The notes under the pieces are model-generated. The model had not been told where the DNA came from. It did no database searches and was given only the letters and a program-made list of their open reading frames with translations. Source: Candidatus Methylomirabilia bacterium (GTDB taxonomy: Bacteria > Methylomirabilota > Methylomirabilia > Rokubacteriales > CSP1-6). Taken from it: DNA of 64,000 nt. Both the position numbers and the translations under genes were made by a program. The stretch lies in contig JBGQEL010000006.1 of the NCBI GenBank assembly GCA_041496385.1, positions 222 to 64,221 on the forward strand, given 5' to 3'. This document shows, in pieces, positions 8,516 to 50,356 of the stretch; within the stretch, counting starts at the first letter, position 1, and the number at the start of each line of letters is the position of its first letter.

Positions 8516-9307
8516 ATGCCGATGGAGATCGCCGGCCTGAAGGTCGAGCGCGCGGGGCCGCGGGTGCCCGAGCGCGACCGCCCCGTCCTCTTCGTCCACG
8601 GCATGTGGGGCGGCGCGTGGATGTGGGACGACTACCTCGGCTTCTTCGCTGGGCACGGCTACACCTGCTACGCGCTGAACCTGCGCGGGCATCACGGCTC
8701 GAAGCCGGTGCCCGACGGCGGCCGCGTGCCCTTCGCCGACCACGTGACCGACGCGCGCGGCGTCGTCGCCGCGCTCGGCAACCCCATCCTCGTCGGCCAC
8801 TCGATGGGCGGCCTCCTGGTGCAGAAGCTCGCCGAGCTGCTAGACCCGCCGGCCGTGGTCGCGCTCACGCCCGCCGCGCCCCGGGGCATCCTGCCGCTCT
8901 GCACGCTGGAGCTCGCGCGGCTGTCGCTGAAGCATCTCCACGAGATGCTGCTCGCCCGGCCCGTCGTGCCGTCGTTCGATGAGGCCGAGGCGCTGCTCTT
9001 CGGCCGGATCCCGCCCGCCGAGCGCCGCAGGGCGTACGAGCGTCTCGTGCCCGAGTCGGGCCGGATGACGTTCGACATCGCCGTCCGGGGCGTGCCCGTG
9101 GCCGCCGCCCGCGTGCGGAGCCCGATGCTCGTGGTGGCGGCCCGCGAGGACCGCATCACGCCCGCGACGATGGTGCGCAAGATCGCGCGGAAGTACGGTG
9201 CCGAGCTGCGCACGTACGACGATCACGCGCACATGGTCCTGCTGGAGCCCGGCTGGGAGCTCATCGCCGGGGAGATCGTGAGCTGGCTCGAGAAGGAGGC
9301 TCGATGA
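8516..9307 (+). CDS. Alpha/beta hydrolase
   Basis: The sequence LFVHGMWGGAWMWD...VGHSMGG carries the nucleophile elbow GHSMG. The protein is 263 aa. Confidence 0.75.
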   Translation: MPMEIAGLKVERAGPRVPERDRPVLFVHGMWGGAWMWDDYLGFFAGHGYTCYALNLRGHHGSKPVPDGGRVPFADHVTDARGVVAALGNPILVGHSMGGLLVQKLAELLDPPAVVALTPAAPRGILPLCTLELARLSLKHLHEMLLARPVVPSFDEAEALLFGRIPPAERRRAYERLVPESGRMTFDIAVRGVPVAAARVRSPMLVVAAREDRITPATMVRKIARKYGAELRTYDDHAHMVLLEPGWELIAGEIVSWLEKEAR

Positions 9308-10518
9308 AGACCCTTCGGGACAAGTACTGCATCGTGGGCGTGGGAGAGACCGAGTACTCGCGCGGCTCGAAGCGGACGACGCGCGCGATGGCCGTCGAGG
9401 CCGTCCGTACGGCGATCCTCGACGCGGGACTCACGGCCCGCGACGTGGACGGCATGCTGGACTACCAGTCCGGCGACTCCACGCTCGCCAGCCACGTCGC
9501 GTCCGACCTCGGCATCCGCCTCAACTTCTTCATGGACGTGGTCGGCGGCGGCTCGTCCACCGAGGCGCTGATCGGCCTGGCGATGGGCGCGATCGAGGCC
9601 GGGATGTGCAACGCGGTCGCCATCTACCGCTCGATGAACGGCTACAGCGAGTTCCGCATCGGCGGCACCGGCGCGCGCGCCGCCCAGCCCGTGCGCGGCC
9701 TCGACCTCGCCCAGGTGCCCTTCGGCATGCGGAGCGCCGGCCAGAACTTCGCGCCGACCTTCCTGCGCCACATGTACGAGTACGGGACCACCTCGGAGCA
9801 GGTCGCCCACGTGAAGGTCGCCCACAGCAAGCACGCCTCGAACAACCCGAAGGCGCTCCTGAAGGAACGGGTGACCGTCGCGGACGTCGTGGGCTCGCGC
9901 TGGATCGTGAAGCCGCTCCACCTCCTCGACTGCTGCCTGGAGACCGACAACGCGACCTGCCTGGTCGTGACCACGGCCGAGCGCGCCCGCGACCTCCGGC
10001 GGCGTCCCGTGCACATCCTGGGCGTCGCCGGGCGCGTGTCGAAGCCGCGCCTCGATTTCCACTGGGCGCACGGCCCCATCACGCGCGTGGCCGGTTACTA
10101 CGCGAAGGACATCGTCTTCGGCCAGGCCGGCGTCGGCCCCGAGGACGTGGACGTCACGGGCTCCTACGACGCGTTCACGTTCACGACGATGCTGCAGCTC
10201 GAGGAGTACGGCTTCTGCAAGAAGGGGGAGGGCGGGCAGTACGTCTCGAGCGGGATCATCGAGCTCGGCGGCGGGCGCCCGAACAACACCGCCGGCGGCC
10301 ATCTCTGCGAGGGCTACACCCACGGGATGTCGATGGTGATCGAGAACGTCCGTCAGCTCCGGGGCACCGTGGACGACTACTGCCCGAGGGCCGCGGAGGG
10401 TGTGCACACCTACGACTACGCCGCGGGCCGCTGTCGCCAGGTGAAGGACACCGAGGTCACGATGAACCTCGGCTGGGCCATGCCGCCGATTGGCAGCGCG
10501 CTGATCATGCGTCGATGA
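9304..10518 (+). CDS. Thiolase-like lipid-transfer protein (SCP-x / Ltp type thiolase fold)
   Basis: The sequence MKTLRDKYCIVGVGETEYSRGS...GGHLCEGYTHG is typical of Ltp/SCP-x thiolase-like proteins that pair with DUF35 proteins. It overlaps the upstream gene by 4 nt. Confidence 0.8.
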   Translation: MKTLRDKYCIVGVGETEYSRGSKRTTRAMAVEAVRTAILDAGLTARDVDGMLDYQSGDSTLASHVASDLGIRLNFFMDVVGGGSSTEALIGLAMGAIEAGMCNAVAIYRSMNGYSEFRIGGTGARAAQPVRGLDLAQVPFGMRSAGQNFAPTFLRHMYEYGTTSEQVAHVKVAHSKHASNNPKALLKERVTVADVVGSRWIVKPLHLLDCCLETDNATCLVVTTAERARDLRRRPVHILGVAGRVSKPRLDFHWAHGPITRVAGYYAKDIVFGQAGVGPEDVDVTGSYDAFTFTTMLQLEEYGFCKKGEGGQYVSSGIIELGGGRPNNTAGGHLCEGYTHGMSMVIENVRQLRGTVDDYCPRAAEGVHTYDYAAGRCRQVKDTEVTMNLGWAMPPIGSALIMRR

Positions 10519-10525
10519 ACCCGCC

Positions 10526-11047
10526 ATGGAGGTGTCGCTGATGCCCGAGCCCGTCCAGTACCGCGGGATGTCGCTCATCGTCCCGGACAACGACACGGAG
10601 TGGAAGGAGTTCTACGCGCACGCGCGCGCCCACCGGCTCGTCGTGCGCAAGTGCGCCGCCTGCGGCCTCCTGCGGTACCCGGCGACGCACGCCTGTCCCT
10701 GGTGCATGGAGCTCGGCTGGACCTGGCAGGAGGTCTCCGGGCGCGGCGCGATCTACTCCTACGAGATCGTCCATCACGCGATCCAGCCTGGCTTCCGCGA
10801 GCTCACGCCCTACGCCGTCGTGCTCGTCGAGCTCGACGAGCAGCGGGGGACGCCCACGCCCGACGAGGCGCTCAGGATCATCGGCAACCTCCTGAAGCCC
10901 GACCTCTCCCCCGAGGCCGAGGAGCAGGTCGCCATCGGCAAGCGCGTGCGCGTGATCTTCCAGGACCTCGCCGACCACATGGCGCTGCCGCAGTTCGCGC
11001 TGACCGACGAGCCGGCGCAGGGACGCGTGTGGCGCCTCACGCCGTGA
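10526..11047 (+). CDS. Zn-ribbon OB-fold protein (DUF35 / ChsH2-like partner of Ltp thiolases)
   Basis: The sequence RKCAACGLLRYPATHACPWC is a rubredoxin-like zinc ribbon, and an OB-fold region follows. The protein is 173 aa. Confidence 0.8.
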   Translation: MEVSLMPEPVQYRGMSLIVPDNDTEWKEFYAHARAHRLVVRKCAACGLLRYPATHACPWCMELGWTWQEVSGRGAIYSYEIVHHAIQPGFRELTPYAVVLVELDEQRGTPTPDEALRIIGNLLKPDLSPEAEEQVAIGKRVRVIFQDLADHMALPQFALTDEPAQGRVWRLTP

Positions 11048-11555
11048 GCCTCCTCACGATGTCGTCGAACGCCCCCTCGGCCAGCGCGCGGACCTCGTCA
11101 CGGGTGAGCGGCTGGATGGGATGCGCGACGACGACGGTCGGATAGTCCCGGGCGCCGAGGGCGCCCGCCTGGGCGCGCGCGGCCTGCACGAACTCCGACG
11201 AGATGATCGTCGCGGTGGGAATGCCGTTGTCCTCGAAGAACACGCCGTCGTGCACACTGCACGTTGTGCAGGACCCTCAGTCCGCGAGCGCCTCGATCAG
11301 CACGTCGGTCGCCCCGACGATCTCCCGCCTGAGATCGTCCGGCGCCGGTCGCGCGAACGTGGGCTTTCGCTTCCTCACGATGGCCTTCGGCCTCGCACGC
11401 TCACGCAGCAGCTCCTCGATCCGCTCGAGGAGGTGATCCCCCTTGGCCTTGGAGATGTCGAGCAGCGTGACGATCTTGCCGTCGAGGCTCGACGGCCGCG
11501 GGGCGGTCTTCCGCGGAACGGCGACGGAGGCGGTCGGGTCGAGGTAGTCGGACAT
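11037..11555 (-). CDS. Candidate UGSC-family selenoprotein, with an in-frame TGA at 11277-11279 read as selenocysteine
   Basis: Track ORFs 11277..11573 and 11037..11255 are in the same frame and are separated only by a TGA plus 7 codons. Read-through gives ...VLIEALAD-U-GSCTTCSVHDGVFFEDNG... The true start is the ATG at 11553-11555 (MSDYLD), which follows a strong ribosome-binding site (GACAGGAGGAGAGACC). The downstream ORF has no ribosome-binding site or ATG of its own. Confidence 0.55.
11250..11276 (-). promoter_or_regulatory. SECIS-like hairpin immediately 3' of the in-frame UGA
   Basis: The mRNA reads UGA GGGUCC CUGCAC AAC GUGCAG UGUGCAC. This is a 6-bp perfect stem (CUGCAC/GUGCAG) that starts 6 nt after the UGA, with alternative extended pairings. 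The position and size are compatible with a bacterial Sec insertion sequence, but this was not modelled. Confidence 0.3.
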
Positions 11556-11569
11556 GGTCTCTCCTCCTG

Positions 11570-12613
11570 TCACGGGGTCTGGATCGGCCTGAACACCAGC
11601 GTCGAGCTCTTGGCGAACGTCCAGCCGGGGACGATCGCCGAGAACCGTCCGGCCGTGCCGCCTGCCACCAGGATCTTCAGATTGTCGGGCGCGCGGAACT
11701 TCGGCATCGGCGTGGCGTCGTTCGAGGGATCGGCGAACTTCCTCAGCACGTGCTCCGGGAGTCCTTCACCGCCGTCCCGGCCGGGCACCAGCTCGCGCAC
11801 CGGGCGGCGCAGGCGCTCCCAGAGCCAGCGGCGCACGTCGTCCTTCGTCCAGCGGGCGTCGCCGAGCGTCTTCGCGTGCTCGGGCGAGAGCACCACCAGC
11901 GTGTCGCCCCAGTGCGTCGCCTTGTGGTGCGAGACGACGCCGAGGCTCGCGGCGATCGTCGCCAGGAGGTCCTCGGGCCGCCGCGATTGATGGTCGTAGA
12001 CGCCGAGCGGCGCATCGGCCGCGAGGACCGCGACGGTGCTCCCCCCGCGCGCGAATCCGTGCTCGACGGCCAGCGACTCCCAGGGGCTCGCCTCTTCGTG
12101 CTCGCCGATGCAGTAGGTGTAGCGGCCCGGGTGGGCCAGCGTGGACATGCTGACGACGCCCGGCGTCGCGCCGCCGACGTTGACGCAGACGAGGCGCAGG
12201 GCGCGGCCGATCGTCGCGTTGGCCCGCCAGCCCGAGCCGAAGACACCGGCGGCGCAGTTGATGTCGAGGGCGCCGCGGATCGGACCGTTGACGATGACGA
12301 GGGGCGCCGGCGAGTTCGTGGTCGCCGACACGCCGTGGAGATCGAAGCGCTCGTCGCAGACCGCCTCGACGGCGGCGAGGACGACGGGGAGGTACTCCGG
12401 GCGGCAGCCCGCCATGACCGCGTTGGTCGCGATCTTCTCGACGGTGGCGGCGCCGTAGTTGGGGGGAACGAGGGCCACCACCTCGCTCGCGTCCCGCCCC
12501 GCCGCCCCGACCGCGCGCGCCACGCGTTCGCGCGTCGGCGGGACGACGGGCAGCCCGTCGGTCACGCCGCGCGCGTAGAGCTCCTCGATGAGGTCGGGGT
12601 CGGCGAGTGACAT
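11570..12613 (-). CDS. Hypothetical protein (347 aa) translationally coupled to the candidate selenoprotein
   Basis: The start was chosen at MSLADPDLIEELYARG. The stop TGA at 11570-11572 lies inside the ribosome-binding-site region of the next gene. The protein has coding-like composition and several conserved-looking Cys (MAGCRPEY, AVCDERF, DINCAAG, LVCVNVGG), but I do not recognise a family. Confidence 0.55.
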   Translation of the reverse strand: MSLADPDLIEELYARGVTDGLPVVPPTRERVARAVGAAGRDASEVVALVPPNYGAATVEKIATNAVMAGCRPEYLPVVLAAVEAVCDERFDLHGVSATTNSPAPLVIVNGPIRGALDINCAAGVFGSGWRANATIGRALRLVCVNVGGATPGVVSMSTLAHPGRYTYCIGEHEEASPWESLAVEHGFARGGSTVAVLAADAPLGVYDHQSRRPEDLLATIAASLGVVSHHKATHWGDTLVVLSPEHAKTLGDARWTKDDVRRWLWERLRRPVRELVPGRDGGEGLPEHVLRKFADPSNDATPMPKFRAPDNLKILVAGGTAGRFSAIVPGWTFAKSSTLVFRPIQTP

Positions 12614-39829: not shown

Positions 39830-40654
39830 GTGAGACCGCGAGGGCGCCTCCACGTCGGTCCCGCGCTCCGGCGGCCCCGGCTGCCCCTCCGCTTCGCGCT
39901 CGTCTCCGTGGTCTTCCACGCGGCGTTCGTCGCGGCGGTGCTCTGGGGCAACTCCGTGTGGGGCGACAGCCGATCGAAGACCGTGTACGTGAACCTCGTG
40001 CCCGCCGTCGCCGCCGTCGGCCGCGCGCAGGGCGTCGCCGCGCTCCCGCCCCGGCCCGAGGACACGCCGCCGCGCGCGGCGCGCACGAGTCCGACCGACC
40101 TGCCCACACGCGAGCCGGCACGCGACCTGCCGGCGCGGGACCGTCCGCGCGAGAGCCTCGGGCTGCCCGATCCGGGCCTGCCCTCGCGCGCGCCCGGCCT
40201 TCCGCGTCCGGACGACCGCGATCTCCCGCGCGCGGCGAGCACCAGCGTCCCGCGGCCGACACCGGCGCCCGCGCCGGCGTCCACCCCGCGCGAGAGCAGC
40301 GCGCCGACCCCGCCGCTCGGCGCGCCGGGCGGCTCCGCGCAGGGCGCCGGCGCGCTCACCCTGAACGTCTCGGACTTTCCCCACGCGTGGTACATCGCGG
40401 CGATCCACCGGAAGATCAAGGAGCGGTGGGACAGCGTGGCGCTCGCCGGCCAGCAACCCGCCGTCGTCTTCGAGATCGCCCGCGGCGGCGAGCTCCGCGG
40501 CGTCCGCGTGGACAAGAGCTCCGGCAACCCGTACTACGATCAGGCCGCTGTCCGCGCCGTCACCGAGGCGAATCCCTTCCCGCCGCTCCCCGCCGACTTC
40601 AAGAAGCCGGTGCTGACCGTCGGGTTGCAGTTCGCGTTCGATCCGCAGCGATGA
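39830..40654 (+). CDS. tolA: TolA/TonB-family energy transducer (TolA by position)
   Basis: An N-terminal TM helix is followed by a long Pro-rich linker and a TonB-C-like C-terminal domain (GELRGVRVDKSSGNPYYDQAAVRAV). It lies between tolR and tolB. Confidence 0.7.
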   Translation: MRPRGRLHVGPALRRPRLPLRFALVSVVFHAAFVAAVLWGNSVWGDSRSKTVYVNLVPAVAAVGRAQGVAALPPRPEDTPPRAARTSPTDLPTREPARDLPARDRPRESLGLPDPGLPSRAPGLPRPDDRDLPRAASTSVPRPTPAPAPASTPRESSAPTPPLGAPGGSAQGAGALTLNVSDFPHAWYIAAIHRKIKERWDSVALAGQQPAVVFEIARGGELRGVRVDKSSGNPYYDQAAVRAVTEANPFPPLPADFKKPVLTVGLQFAFDPQR

Positions 40655-47802: not shown

Positions 47803-48594
47803 GTGCCGCTCCGCCCGCTCGCCCTCGCGTTGCTCGCGCTGCTGGCGGGCGCCTGCGCGTACCCCGTCGAGGGCGACTTCGCCGGGCGCGGCCTCGACCG
47901 CGTCCAGAGTCCCGCGACGACGATCGTCGTCATCCACAACCACGGCTTCTCGAGCGCCCAGGCGGGCACCTACCGGCCGCTGACGCCGCCCATCCTGCGT
48001 CTGGCCGCCGAGCGGAACGCCGACGTGGTCGTCTTCTCGCAGGTCCGCAACACCGCGAACCTCACGGCGGCGGACCACGCGGCGTACATCGAGTCGGCGA
48101 TCGCGTACTTCCACCGGGAGCGCGGCGTGCCGCTCGAGAACATCATCCTCGCGGGCCAGAGCTGCGGCGGCTGGGGCTCGCTCCAGGCGGCGGCGTTCAC
48201 CTACCCGCAGCTCGGCGGCGTCATCGGCTTCGCGCCCACGTGCCACGGCAAGCTCCCCCACCCGACGGCCGTCCGCATCCGGCGCGAGATGGAGATCGCC
48301 CAGCTCGCGAGCCGCCTCCGCACGCCGGGCACCATCTTCCTGTACGAGGGCGACTCGTACTACGACGTGGCGGAGTGGGACGCGTTCGCCGCGCGCGTGA
48401 ACGGCGTGTCGGGGCTCCGCCTCGAGCGCGTCGAGCGCGCCCGGATCCTCGAGCTCTGCGCGCGCTGCGCGACCGACAGCCACGGCGCCTACTGGGACGC
48501 GCGGTTCGCCGAGGCGTTCTACGAGCGTCACGTGCAGGCGCTGATCGACCAGGTGCGCGCGCGGATCCGCGCGCGGACGGTGGCTAGCCCTTGA
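47803..48594 (+). CDS. Lipoprotein, alpha/beta-hydrolase-like esterase
   Basis: The GTG start lies 8 nt after the upstream stop, and the lipobox is LLAGC. The sequence VIHNHGF...LAGQSCGGW is a nucleophile elbow GQSCG. Confidence 0.55.
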   Translation: MPLRPLALALLALLAGACAYPVEGDFAGRGLDRVQSPATTIVVIHNHGFSSAQAGTYRPLTPPILRLAAERNADVVVFSQVRNTANLTAADHAAYIESAIAYFHRERGVPLENIILAGQSCGGWGSLQAAAFTYPQLGGVIGFAPTCHGKLPHPTAVRIRREMEIAQLASRLRTPGTIFLYEGDSYYDVAEWDAFAARVNGVSGLRLERVERARILELCARCATDSHGAYWDARFAEAFYERHVQALIDQVRARIRARTVASP

Positions 48595-49747
48595 GGTCGT
48601 CGGGGAGCTTCGGCAGCTCGCCGAGCGCCTTGGGGTCGACCGCGTAGATCGCGGGCAGGGCCTTGAGCTTCGCGTAGACCGTCTCGCCCTCGCGCCGGCC
48701 GACGAGGACCGTCGCGATCTCGCCGCCGTCGGCGCGCAGCAGGGTGGCCTCGAACGCGGGCGCGGCGAGGCCGTACTTCGCAGCCTCCTGGCTGCCGGGC
48801 GCGGCGATCGCCTTCCACTTGAGGCCGCGGAGCGTGTAGAGCAGGTTCTCGACGCTCCCGCCCTTCGTGGCGCCCGAGCCGCCCTCGACGAACTTCCACT
48901 CGAGGTCTCCGCTCCGCTCGAGGACGACCGTCGTCCCGCCCGCGCGCAACCGCAGGCGCCTGACCTCCTTGGGGTCGAGCCCCGGCAGGAAGGTCCGCTC
49001 GCGCAGATCCGTGACCGAGCGGGCGAGCTCGGTCACCGTCTTGCCGTCGACGAGCACCACCGGTCCCCGGCCCGCGACGGCGGCGTAGGCGCTCGCCGCC
49101 CCGCCCCGCGTCTCCGGCGACGGCGCGAGCAGGACGGTCTTCGGCGCCGGCGCGCCCTCCTCGGTGAGCGTGACGCGCACGGTGGGACGGCCGAGATACC
49201 GGGGAATCGCGGCGGCGTCCTCGGAGAGGAAGCCCTGGGCGCGGAGCTCCCGCAGCTTGAAGAGGATCGCGCCGGCCTCGACCTGGTCGGCGGGCAGCGG
49301 CTCGGGCGCCGTGATCCGCCAGCGCGTCCCCTCGCGCGCGAGCGCCACCGCGCCCTTCGGGCTCTCCAGGTCGATGCGCGTGACCTTGTCGCGGTCGAAC
49401 TCGACCACGAGCTTGTTGCGGAGCGCGCCGACGTTCTTCGGCACCGCCGCCCACGCCGCCTCCGGCAGCAGCAGCACCGACGACTCGCCGGGACGCATCG
49501 CGTACACGCCCTGCTTCGCCTTGTCCACGGCGCCCAGCAGCAGCTCCTTCGTGGCGCGGTCCTTGTCGCGGCCCGTGTGGATCGCCACCCGCACGGGCCG
49601 GTCGAGGCCGTAGGGCTGGAGCGACGGCGGCGACTCGGCGACGAAGTCCTTGACCTTCTGCGCCTGGAGCTTCTCGAGGAAGTCGCCGATCGTCTCGCCG
49701 TCGGCGGCGAGCGCCACCGGCTTCGTGAGCCTCCACTTGCCGTCCAC
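48584..49747 (-). CDS. DUF4340 domain protein, C-terminal part (follows an in-frame TAG)
   Basis: This part is in the same frame as 49751-50350 and is separated from it only by a TAG at 49748-49750. Its GTG start lies 4 nt after that TAG. Confidence 0.6.
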   Translation of the reverse strand: MDGKWRLTKPVALAADGETIGDFLEKLQAQKVKDFVAESPPSLQPYGLDRPVRVAIHTGRDKDRATKELLLGAVDKAKQGVYAMRPGESSVLLLPEAAWAAVPKNVGALRNKLVVEFDRDKVTRIDLESPKGAVALAREGTRWRITAPEPLPADQVEAGAILFKLRELRAQGFLSEDAAAIPRYLGRPTVRVTLTEEGAPAPKTVLLAPSPETRGGAASAYAAVAGRGPVVLVDGKTVTELARSVTDLRERTFLPGLDPKEVRRLRLRAGGTTVVLERSGDLEWKFVEGGSGATKGGSVENLLYTLRGLKWKAIAAPGSQEAAKYGLAAPAFEATLLRADGGEIATVLVGRREGETVYAKLKALPAIYAVDPKALGELPKLPDDLKG

Positions 49748-49750
49748 CTG

Positions 49751-50350
49751 CTAGGCGGCGAGCGTCTCCTCGCGCGTCTGGATCTCCAGCGCCGACACGC
49801 TCCTGCCGTCGAACGCGAGCACCGTCTTGTCGCGGAAGTCGGCGAGCGGACGCGTCACGTCGCGGAGCACGCCCTCCGAGAGGGCGACGACCGCGGCCTT
49901 CTGCGACTCGCGCGCGTAGACCCAGACGCCGGTGGGGCTCTTCGCCCCGAGGGCCACGCCGAGCTGCCGGCCGTCCTTCAGCGTGAGCGTCGCCTGGGCT
50001 TCGGGCTTGGCGAGCCCGAACTCCGCGACCTGTCCCGGGGTCGCGGCGATCTCCCGGTCCACGCGCGCCGTCGTGAGGCTCACCAGCGTCTCGTCGATCC
50101 GGGCGCGGTCGCCGCGCGCCTTGAGGGGCTCCACGATCTGCCAGCCGTCCCCCTCGCGCTTGAGCCGGATGACCTCGGCGCCGCGCCGGAGCTCGGCCTC
50201 CGTGACGTCCGACGCCTCCACGGTCCAGAGTCGCCCCTGCTGCGCGGAGGCCTTCTCGCGCTCGGGGCCGCCCCTGATCTCGTAGAGGTAGTAGAAGGCG
50301 CCGAGGCCGACGAGGACGACGGCCAGCACCGCGCTCGTCTGCCAGCGCAT
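49751..50350 (-). CDS. DUF4340 domain protein, N-terminal part (signal anchor)
   Basis: It begins MRWQTSAVLAVVLVGLGAFYYLY and ends at an amber codon. Together with the downstream ORF it would give a ~588-aa DUF4340 protein, which is the typical partner of GldG. Confidence 0.6.
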   Translation of the reverse strand: MRWQTSAVLAVVLVGLGAFYYLYEIRGGPEREKASAQQGRLWTVEASDVTEAELRRGAEVIRLKREGDGWQIVEPLKARGDRARIDETLVSLTTARVDREIAATPGQVAEFGLAKPEAQATLTLKDGRQLGVALGAKSPTGVWVYARESQKAAVVALSEGVLRDVTRPLADFRDKTVLAFDGRSVSALEIQTREETLAA

Positions 50351-50356
50351 GCGACG

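What the first reader, a model, noticed from the sequence alone, without database searches (positions are those of the whole stretch)
11037..11573. Candidate selenoprotein with U-G-S-C-x-x-C motif hidden behind an in-frame TGA
Two adjacent ORFs on the minus strand (11277-11573 and 11037-11255) share one reading frame, and only a TGA plus 7 codons separates them.
- The downstream ORF has no Shine-Dalgarno sequence and no ATG of its own, only a GTG directly in the read-through frame.
- The upstream ORF has a strong ribosome-binding site (AGGAGGAG) and ends exactly at the TGA.
- Read-through gives a 173-aa protein: ...DVLIEALAD-U-GSCTTC-SVHDGVFF...
- A UGSC-containing protein family is known among prokaryotic selenoproteins. 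U-x-x-C-x-x-C is also the redox motif of glycine/sarcosine/betaine reductase protein B.
- A perfect 6-bp hairpin (CUGCAC AAC GUGCAG, 11256-11270) starts 6 nt after the UGA, which is the position expected for a bacterial SECIS.
- An annotation pipeline would split or truncate this gene.
Basis: partly seen in the sequence, partly recalled or inferred. Interest (0 to 1): 0.8.

Follow-up and report, generated by a model that had tools for sequence, protein, structure and literature searches.

The report
UGSC-family selenoprotein gene with SECIS
The two short ORFs are one gene for a 172-residue selenocysteine protein of the already catalogued UGSC family, from a Rokubacteria-type bacterium; this is a correct call but not a new kind of thing, and the protein's function, with that of its constant partner gene, is still unknown.

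Summary
On the minus strand, ATG 11555 (RBS AGGAGGAG), in-frame TGA 11279-11277 and stop 11039-11037 give one 172-codon frame reading ...ALAD-U-GSCTTCSVHDG.... The read-through product scores above the curated cut-off of NCBIfam NF041046 'UGSC family (seleno)protein' and matches Pfam PF24696 end to end, across the UGA. All 81 related Rokuibacteriota/Methylomirabilota loci, and 8 loci carrying distant split (Sec-form) genes, have TGA at this codon; full-length homologues have Cys there. Sequence after the UGA evolves as coding (pN/pS 0.31). From +3 to +37 synonymous sites are almost frozen, including an invariant AGT Ser codon. It is CGUGCA-GUG-UGCACG (11263-11249), which is kept in nine lineages with one compensatory and several wobble changes, has an invariant GU loop, lies 19 nt after the UGA, and is absent from Cys-form genes. 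Sec machinery could not be checked, because only 64 kb is available. The U-x-x-C-x-x-C/GrdB analogy is not supported. A 347-aa partner gene with no Pfam family is adjacent across three phyla and fused to UGSC in some proteins. Verdict: a real selenoprotein of a known family; low novelty.

The parts
11037..11555 (-). Complete UGSC-family selenoprotein CDS: 172 codons including Sec93, plus stop TGA 11039-11037
   Evidence: one frame; NF041046 157 bits and PF24696 175 bits, both spanning the UGA. pN/pS is 0.25 upstream and 0.31 downstream of the UGA.
11561..11568 (-). Shine-Dalgarno AGGAGGAG, 5 nt upstream of ATG 11555-11553
   Evidence: Read directly. Homologues start at the equivalent Met.
11277..11279 (-). 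In-frame UGA, read as Sec codon 93
   Evidence: TGA in 81/81 Rokubacteria-type loci and in 8/8 loci carrying distant split (Sec-form) genes. It aligns with Cys in full-length homologues.
11268..11279 (-). Codons of the redox motif U-G-S-C (UGA GGG UCC UGC)
   Evidence: In alignment A1, D92, C93(=U) and G94 are at least 90% conserved and C96 is invariant. In the AF2 model of fusion homologue P0314 the two Cys sit at the beta3/alpha3 junction and in the first helical turn.
11249..11263 (-). Best-supported SECIS core hairpin CGUGCA-GUG-UGCACG (6 bp, loop G11257 U11256 G11255), starting 16 nt after the U of the UGA; 19 nt lie between the UGA and the apical loop
   Evidence: All bases are invariant in 81 loci. 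The stem is kept in 9 lineages: 93.7% of cells paired, one compensatory C-G to G-C change, several wobble changes, and an invariant GU loop. It meets the published bSECIS constraints. It is broken in Cys-form genes, 4/6 and 3/6 pairs, even where the peptide CSVHD is the same.
11242..11276 (-). Stretch of coding sequence under RNA-level constraint (+3..+37), with frozen synonymous sites including GGG Gly and AGT Ser
   Evidence: only +8 and +14 vary within this stretch in 81 sequences.
11257..11271 (-).
   Evidence: It folds at -6.1 kcal/mol, against -7.4 for the core hairpin and -11.9 for the extended stem. The 8:22 pair is absent in 44/81 relatives. The loop is variable with no conserved G, and there are no double changes.
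11570..12613 (-). Partner gene (347 aa from ATG 12613; no Pfam or NCBIfam family; invariant Cys in the NAVMAGC motif). Its stop lies 14 nt upstream of the UGSC start codon.
   Evidence: No family hit; at least 7,988 homologues. It lies directly upstream of UGSC in 76/81 loci, and also in Nocardioides and Steroidobacteraceae. It is fused to the UGSC domain in P0314, P0366, P0357, P0309, P0382 and P0325.

Best explanation
One gene encodes a 172-aa UGSC-family selenoprotein. Translation starts at ATG 11555 behind a strong SD, probably on one transcript with the partner gene that ends 14 nt upstream. At UGA 11279-11277, SelB carrying Sec-tRNA(Sec) is recruited by a SECIS hairpin inside the coding sequence; the core is CGUGCA-GUG-UGCACG at 11263-11249, with a GU-containing apical loop 19 nt after the UGA. 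Selenocysteine is inserted and translation continues to TGA 11039-11037. The product is a Rossmann/flavodoxin-like alpha/beta domain. Sec93 sits at the end of a beta-strand and Cys96 in the first turn of the next helix, so the pair can cycle between selenol/thiol and selenenylsulfide. It most likely acts as the redox-active subunit or dedicated redox carrier of the adjacent partner protein, which carries an invariant Cys and is fused to UGSC in other bacteria. Shown here: the frame, family membership, the Sec/Cys pairing, UGA conservation, coding selection after the UGA, the RNA constraint and hairpin conservation, and partner linkage and fusion. Inferred: SelB/Sec use in this genome, the exact SECIS fold, the redox chemistry, and the substrate. 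The confidence of 0.88 refers to the selenoprotein-gene reading; the redox-partner mechanism alone would rate about 0.4.
For: Family membership. Homologues truncated at the UGA, and a split gene call in a near-identical contig. Cys in full-length homologues. TGA in 81/81 and 8/8 loci. Frozen synonymous sites at +3..+37. pN/pS of 0.31 downstream against 1.57 in a shifted-frame control; Ser at +2 is kept by either AGC or UCN codons. TGA is also the ordinary stop of 21 of 36 confident ORFs, so there is no code change. Hairpin conservation with compensatory and wobble changes and an invariant GU loop. bSECIS criteria from PMC13188914. Hairpin absent from Cys forms. Partner synteny and fusions. Fold and motif position. 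Literature: UGSC is a known selenoprotein family (PMC2398784, PMC13188914), and Methylomirabilota use Sec (PMC13188914, PMC13582414).
Against: No selA, selB, selD or tRNA-Sec was found in the 64-kb window or in the fetched flanks, so Sec competence rests on the lineage and on literature. No Rfam family matches. The local fold is not more stable than shuffled sequence (z = 0.42). Covariation support is thin: nine sequences, one compensatory pair, and 58/500 shuffles reach the observed score. Three mutually exclusive hairpins are possible, and relatives with G at +8 prefer a +5..+32 helix thermodynamically. The redox and partner mechanism is inference from motif position, a predicted structure of a homologue, and gene linkage. 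Neither protein has a solved or characterised relative.
Confidence: 0.88

Rival explanations
1. The UGA is recoded, but to cysteine (through a tRNA-ReC/SelC*-type tRNA that uses the same SECIS) or to Trp/Cys by near-cognate read-through, so the mature protein carries C-G-S-C rather than U-G-S-C.
For: PMC13582414 reports tRNA-ReC-like tRNAs that decode SECIS-dependent UGA as Cys in several MAG lineages. Cys forms of UGSC are functional in many bacteria.
Against: UGA is kept in 89 lineages alongside a costly RNA constraint. If Cys were the product, a one-step change from TGA to TGC/TGT would be expected to spread. The family is curated as a selenoprotein family (NF041046), and the phylum is reported to have large selenoproteomes. 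No tRNA of either kind could be examined here.
Confidence: 0.05
2. The TGA is a genuine stop. The locus encodes two separate small polypeptides (92 aa and 72 aa from GTG 11255) that assemble into a split UGSC domain.
For: Gene callers report two ORFs, each hitting PF24696. The downstream ORF has an in-frame GTG. Many database entries are such fragments.
Against: The stop is always TGA and never TAA or TAG in 89 loci. There is no SD before the GTG. The 7 codons between the TGA and the GTG encode the conserved G-S-C motif, and Ser is kept by AGC or UCN codons. A split would delete the catalytic U/C residue and cut the motif. All full-length homologues are single chains. In some lineages the GTG is replaced by UUG, AUG, CUG or AUC.
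Confidence: 0.03
3. The gene is a pseudogene inactivated by a nonsense mutation, or the TGA is an assembly error.
For: A single in-frame stop is the usual signature of a pseudogene. Elsewhere in the window a DUF4340 gene is interrupted by an in-frame TAG.
Against: The same TGA occurs in 81 species-level genomes and in 8 loci carrying distant split (Sec-form) genes, with purifying selection on both sides (pN/pS 0.25 and 0.31).
Confidence: 0.01

Closest known systems
UGSC family (seleno)protein: NCBIfam NF041046, Pfam PF24696; the 'UGSC-containing protein' of Zhang & Gladyshev 2007/2008
   Same: Scores above the curated cut-off and matches over the full length. Has the D-U-G-S-C motif with Sec/Cys alternation, the same size, and a SECIS directly after the UGA. 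Function is unknown, as for the whole family.
   Different: Nothing essential. This is the Rokuibacteriota/Methylomirabilota clade, about 30-40% identical to Cys-form members. The predicted fold is Rossmann/flavodoxin-like, not the 'likely Trx-like fold' suggested in 2008.
Bacterial SECIS as in E. coli fdhF and the bSECISearch consensus (PMC13188914, Fig. 2A)
   Same: A hairpin inside the coding sequence just after the UGA, with a small apical loop starting G-U, a 6-bp upper stem and 19-nt spacing; all within the published ranges.
   Different: A very short GUG triloop. The sequence contains three GUGCA/UGCAC units that allow alternative pairings. No Rfam model matches, and no SelB binding data exist.
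Glycine/sarcosine/betaine reductase protein B and proline reductase PrdB (Pfam PF07355)
   Same: Selenoproteins with a U-x-x-C redox motif; this protein also happens to read U-x-x-C-x-x-C.
   Different: No PF07355 match, and no grd or prd genes nearby. The third Cys is not conserved in the UGSC family, and its codon is part of the SECIS stem. The size and predicted fold give no sign of homology.
Thioredoxin-fold CxxC/UxxC oxidoreductases
   Same: A redox-type U/C-x-x-C motif with the first residue at the end of a beta-strand and the second in the first turn of a helix. It probably works like these proteins, as a (seleno)thiol-disulfide exchanger.

Membership tests
UGSC family (seleno)protein (NF041046 / PF24696) | Score at or above the curated whole-protein cut-off of the family models | tested here: met
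   NF041046 (equivalog): 157 bits against a cut-off of 125, profile positions 2-147 of 147. PF24696: 175.1 bits against a cut-off of 25, profile positions 2-171 of 172. The match spans the UGA.
UGSC family (seleno)protein (NF041046 / PF24696) | U/C-G-S-C motif, with Sec aligned to Cys in homologues | tested here: met
   A1 alignment: D92, C93(=U) and G94 are at least 90% conserved and C96 is invariant. Cys forms read GDCGSC.
Bacterial SelB/SECIS-dependent selenoprotein gene | In-frame UGA conserved as UGA (never UAA or UAG), with coding selection continuing downstream | tested here: met
   TGA in 81/81 and 8/8 loci. pN/pS downstream is 0.31 against 1.57 in a shifted frame.
Bacterial SelB/SECIS-dependent selenoprotein gene | bSECIS model: apical loop 3-9 nt, upper stem 4-16 bp, G in the first two loop positions, 16-37 nt between the UGA and the loop (PMC13188914) | tested here: met
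Hairpin 11263-11249: loop GUG (3 nt), 6-bp stem, 19 nt spacing. It is conserved in 9 lineages and absent in Cys forms. The +5..+32 stem has 14 nt spacing.
Bacterial SelB/SECIS-dependent selenoprotein gene | Base-pair covariation supporting the SECIS stem | tested here: inconclusive
   One compensatory pair and five wobble-compatible changes in nine sequences, but 58/500 shuffles reach the observed score. There is no covariation within the 81 close relatives, because the core is invariant.
Bacterial SelB/SECIS-dependent selenoprotein gene | selA, selB, selC (tRNA-Sec) and selD present in the same genome | not testable with these tools
   Only a 64-kb window is available. It holds no tRNA and no Sel-family domains in 30 further ORFs scanned, nor in the genes already annotated in L001. 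Support at phylum level comes only from literature.
Bacterial SelB/SECIS-dependent selenoprotein gene | Match to a curated Rfam SECIS family | tested here: not met
   No Rfam match at gathering score in the window, and none for a SECIS family at E <= 10 in 11150-11350. Bacterial SECIS elements are too diverse for this to count against the call.
GrdB/PrdB reductase selenoprotein B (PF07355) | Sequence membership in PF07355 | tested here: not met
   The Pfam scan at E <= 0.01 returns only PF24696.
GrdB/PrdB reductase selenoprotein B (PF07355) | U-x-x-C-x-x-C conserved as a functional motif | tested here: not met
   The third Cys (C99) is not conserved in A1, where Trp, Cys, Ser, Ala and Tyr all occur. 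In L091 it is Trp, with a compensating change in the RNA stem.
GrdB/PrdB reductase selenoprotein B (PF07355) | grd or prd operon context | tested here: not met
   The neighbours are the Pfam-less partner, a DUF35/ChsH2 OB protein, a thiolase-like protein and a YVTN-like protein.
Thioredoxin-fold oxidoreductase | Thioredoxin fold | tested here: not met
   [not shown]

The most novel reading that the evidence does not exclude
UGSC and its ever-present partner (a 347-aa protein with no Pfam or NCBIfam family, an invariant Cys, no solved structural relative, and at least 8,000 homologues) form a two-component redox enzyme of an undescribed kind, spread over at least three phyla and sometimes fused into one chain. 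The Sec/Cys-x-x-Cys domain would serve as the built-in reductant. The Rokubacterial Sec form, with its frozen SECIS, would be an experimental handle for finally assigning a function to one of the most abundant environmental selenoprotein families.
Probability: 0.4. Interest if true: 0.5.

Novelty: already known. Interest (0 to 1): 0.25.

Why it matters
As a selenoprotein call this is routine. The family was described in 2007-2008, has curated NCBIfam and Pfam models, and NCBI already names members in this phylum. The practical value lies in annotation: Prodigal-type gene calls have filled public databases with about 94-aa and about 75-aa fragments of this gene. The side results may be more useful. 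First, the SECIS core is pinned down to a 15-nt hairpin that is conserved from 54% to 75% GC genomes. Second, there is tight two-gene and fusion linkage to a large uncharacterised protein family. Third, the predicted fold is Rossmann/flavodoxin-like rather than thioredoxin-like. Together these give a concrete starting point for working out what this abundant selenoprotein does.

Tried and rejected
- Rfam (gathering score on the whole window, E <= 10 on 11150-11350): no SECIS or other credible family.
- Single-sequence folding significance: z = 0.42, uninformative in a 71% GC gene.
- The lower stem pairing the UGA: no covariation.
- Sec machinery in the window and in 60 flanking loci: none found.
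- Other TGA-split genes in the window: only ordinary same-frame gene junctions at 40652 and 20217.
- The family alignment was too diverse for locus retrieval.
- PDB sequence searches with both family profiles: nothing.
- Figure S1A of PMC2398784 is an image, so the identity of 'Unknown_1' with the partner could not be checked.
- The closest Cys-form locus had no DNA available.
- Alternative genetic code: rejected, because TGA ends 21 of 36 confident ORFs.
Full report
**Observation.** On the minus strand the sequence reads AGGAGGAG (11568-11561), a 5-nt spacer, then ATG (11555-11553). After 92 sense codons comes TGA (11279-11277), followed by GGG TCC TGC ACA ACG TGC AGT, then GTG (11255-11253), and the frame stays open to TGA 11039-11037. 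The product is 172 residues from the ATG, not 173.

**Family.** With U replaced by C, the read-through protein scores 157 bits on NCBIfam NF041046 'UGSC family (seleno)protein' (equivalog, cut-off 125). It scores 175 bits on Pfam PF24696 over profile positions 2-171 of 172. Both matches run across the UGA, so a single domain is split by the stop. The family is a long-known, computationally defined selenoprotein family. It was among the most abundant in the GOS metagenomes, with 255 Sec and 21 Cys sequences, and its function is unknown (PMC2398784). It is listed with NF041046 in a 2026 review (PMC13188914).

**Is the UGA decoded?** The 120 best database homologues are almost all about 94-95 aa. 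All eight of that length whose sequences I read end exactly at ...EALAD, and all named ones come from Rokubacteria/Methylomirabilota MAGs. A near-identical NCBI contig (its partner gene is 99% identical) has the gene called as 92-aa and 72-aa pieces, each hitting PF24696. An exhaustive search with the C-terminal half found two classes. One is fragments of 72-80 aa that begin at the GTG. The other is full-length proteins of 175-215 aa carrying D-C-G-S-C where this gene has D-U-G-S-C.

In 80 species-representative genomes plus the near-identical contig, the codon is TGA in 81 of 81 cases and never TAA, TAG or a sense codon. The same holds in eight loci carrying distant split (Sec-form) genes with GC from 54% to 75%. 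The segment beyond the RNA element evolves as coding sequence, with pN/pS of 0.31, against 0.25 upstream and 1.57 in a shifted-frame control. The Ser two codons after the UGA is kept by either AGC or UCN codons. TGA also terminates 21 of 36 confident ORFs in the window, so UGA has not been reassigned genome-wide.

**RNA element.** Across 81 distinct sequences, third-codon positions from +3 to +37 after the UGA are essentially invariant. The codons are GGG, TGC, ACG, TGC, AGT, GTG, CAC, GAC and GGC, and the AGT Ser codon is striking in a genome with about 93% GC3. Only +8 and +14 vary in this stretch, while four-fold sites elsewhere in the gene carry about 1-1.6 bits.

The stretch contains three GUGCA/UGCAC units, which allow three mutually exclusive hairpins:

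| Hairpin | Position (relative to U of UGA) | Energy in the window sequence | Notes |
|---|---|---|---|
| A | +5..+32 | -11.9 kcal/mol (-17.7 when +8 is G) | loop GUGCA; 14 nt from the UGA |
| C | +16..+30, CGUGCA-GUG-UGCACG | -7.4 kcal/mol | loop GUG; 19 nt from the UGA |

Within Rokubacteria there is no covariation, because the core is frozen. Across nine lineages, hairpin C is kept in 93.7% of cells, and in 53 of 54 cells for the six core pairs. It shows one compensatory change (C20-G26 to G20-C26 in L091) and several wobble-compatible changes, and G22-U23 in the loop is invariant. Hairpin A is kept in 78.9% of cells and is no better than the shuffle control. Hairpin B is kept in 90.7%, but its loop is variable and it has no double changes. 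With nine sequences the statistics are weak, and 58 of 500 shuffles reach the observed score for C.

Hairpin C is the only one that meets all the published bSECIS constraints: a 3-9 nt loop, a 4-16 bp stem, G in the first two loop positions, and 16-37 nt spacing. As a control, a Nocardioides Cys-form gene encodes the same C-S-V-H-D peptide but spells Ser as UCG, which breaks the hairpin (4 of 6 pairs, loop CGG). A Steroidobacteraceae Cys form keeps 3 of 6 pairs. The element therefore goes with the UGA and not with the peptide. The third Cys of 'U-x-x-C-x-x-C' is encoded by the UGC that forms part of this stem, and it is usually Trp in Cys forms. That undermines the GrdB-type motif reading. There is also no PF07355 match.

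**Sec machinery.** The window has no tRNA genes. It has no SelA, SelB or SelD domains in 30 further ORFs scanned, nor in the genes already annotated on L001, and the flanks of 60 related loci have none either. This test cannot be completed with 64 kb. The literature reports a Methylomirabilota MAG with 63 predicted selenoprotein genes (reference 66 identified) and Sec-type hydrogenases in this phylum. Across all nine phyla in that study, selABCD was found in about 90% of genomes with Sec-type hydrogenases. The same paper notes that tRNA-ReC can decode SECIS-dependent UGA as Cys, which is kept here as a minor rival explanation.

**Protein and partner.** The gene directly upstream (11570-12613; 347 aa from its ATG) has no Pfam or NCBIfam family but at least 7,988 homologues. 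It lies immediately upstream of UGSC in 76 of 81 loci. It also precedes Cys-form UGSC genes in Nocardioides (34% identity, E = 2e-50) and in Steroidobacteraceae (39%, E = 1e-63), where the surrounding genes are unrelated. In several proteins it is fused to a UGSC domain, in either order; for example it is 43% identical (E = 5e-81) to residues 234-559 of P0314. This fusion may be the 'UGSC/Unknown_1' fusion of the 2008 paper, but that figure is held only as an image.

The most economical reading is that UGSC and the partner form a two-subunit redox enzyme, with U-x-x-C as the redox-active centre. This is inference from motif position and gene linkage, not a demonstrated function.

**Verdict.** The SECIS assignment and the GrdB analogy need correcting. 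The object is a standard member of a known, curated selenoprotein family, so novelty is low. The unexplained part is the function of the UGSC-partner module.

Noticed in passing
window 48584-50356 (-): Two ORFs (201 aa and 388 aa), both PF14238 DUF4340, lie in one frame separated only by TAG at 49751-49753. The junction reads ...EIQTREETLAA*QVDGKWRLTKPV..., which looks like one protein interrupted by an in-frame TAG. It could be a pseudogene, an assembly error or read-through.
   Followed up: partly
[not shown]
   Followed up: partly
[not shown]
   Followed up: no
P0265, P0001, L093: Variants at the Sec/Cys position: P0265 has Ser (D-S-G-A-C). P0001, which NCBI names 'UGSC family (seleno)protein' in a Methylomirabilia MAG, has Arg there plus an internal deletion of about 35 aa. 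L093 has the motif N-U-V-A-C.
   Followed up: no
L065, L018, L043, L029: Contigs carrying 76-83% identical copies of this Rokubacteria-type gene are titled Candidatus Nitrosocosmicus (an archaeon), Binatia and Dormiibacterota. They are probably mis-binned contigs in those MAGs.
   Followed up: no
window 9304-11047 (+): A thiolase-like/lipid-transfer gene and a DUF35 (ChsH2-type OB plus zinc ribbon) gene converge on the UGSC gene and overlap its 3' end by 11 nt. Within 4 kb of the UGSC gene, the DUF35 gene recurs in 48 of 81 related loci and the thiolase-like gene in 31, a looser association than the partner's.
   Followed up: partly
L082:5857-6975, L083:5888-6985; P0263, P0253, P0273, P0384: Extra Cys-rich C-terminal tails occur in some lineages: PDCGPD(A/S)C on the partner in Nocardioides and Steroidobacteraceae, and CGCAI, CAC or CPI on some Cys-form UGSC proteins. 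They may be additional redox or metal sites.
   Followed up: no
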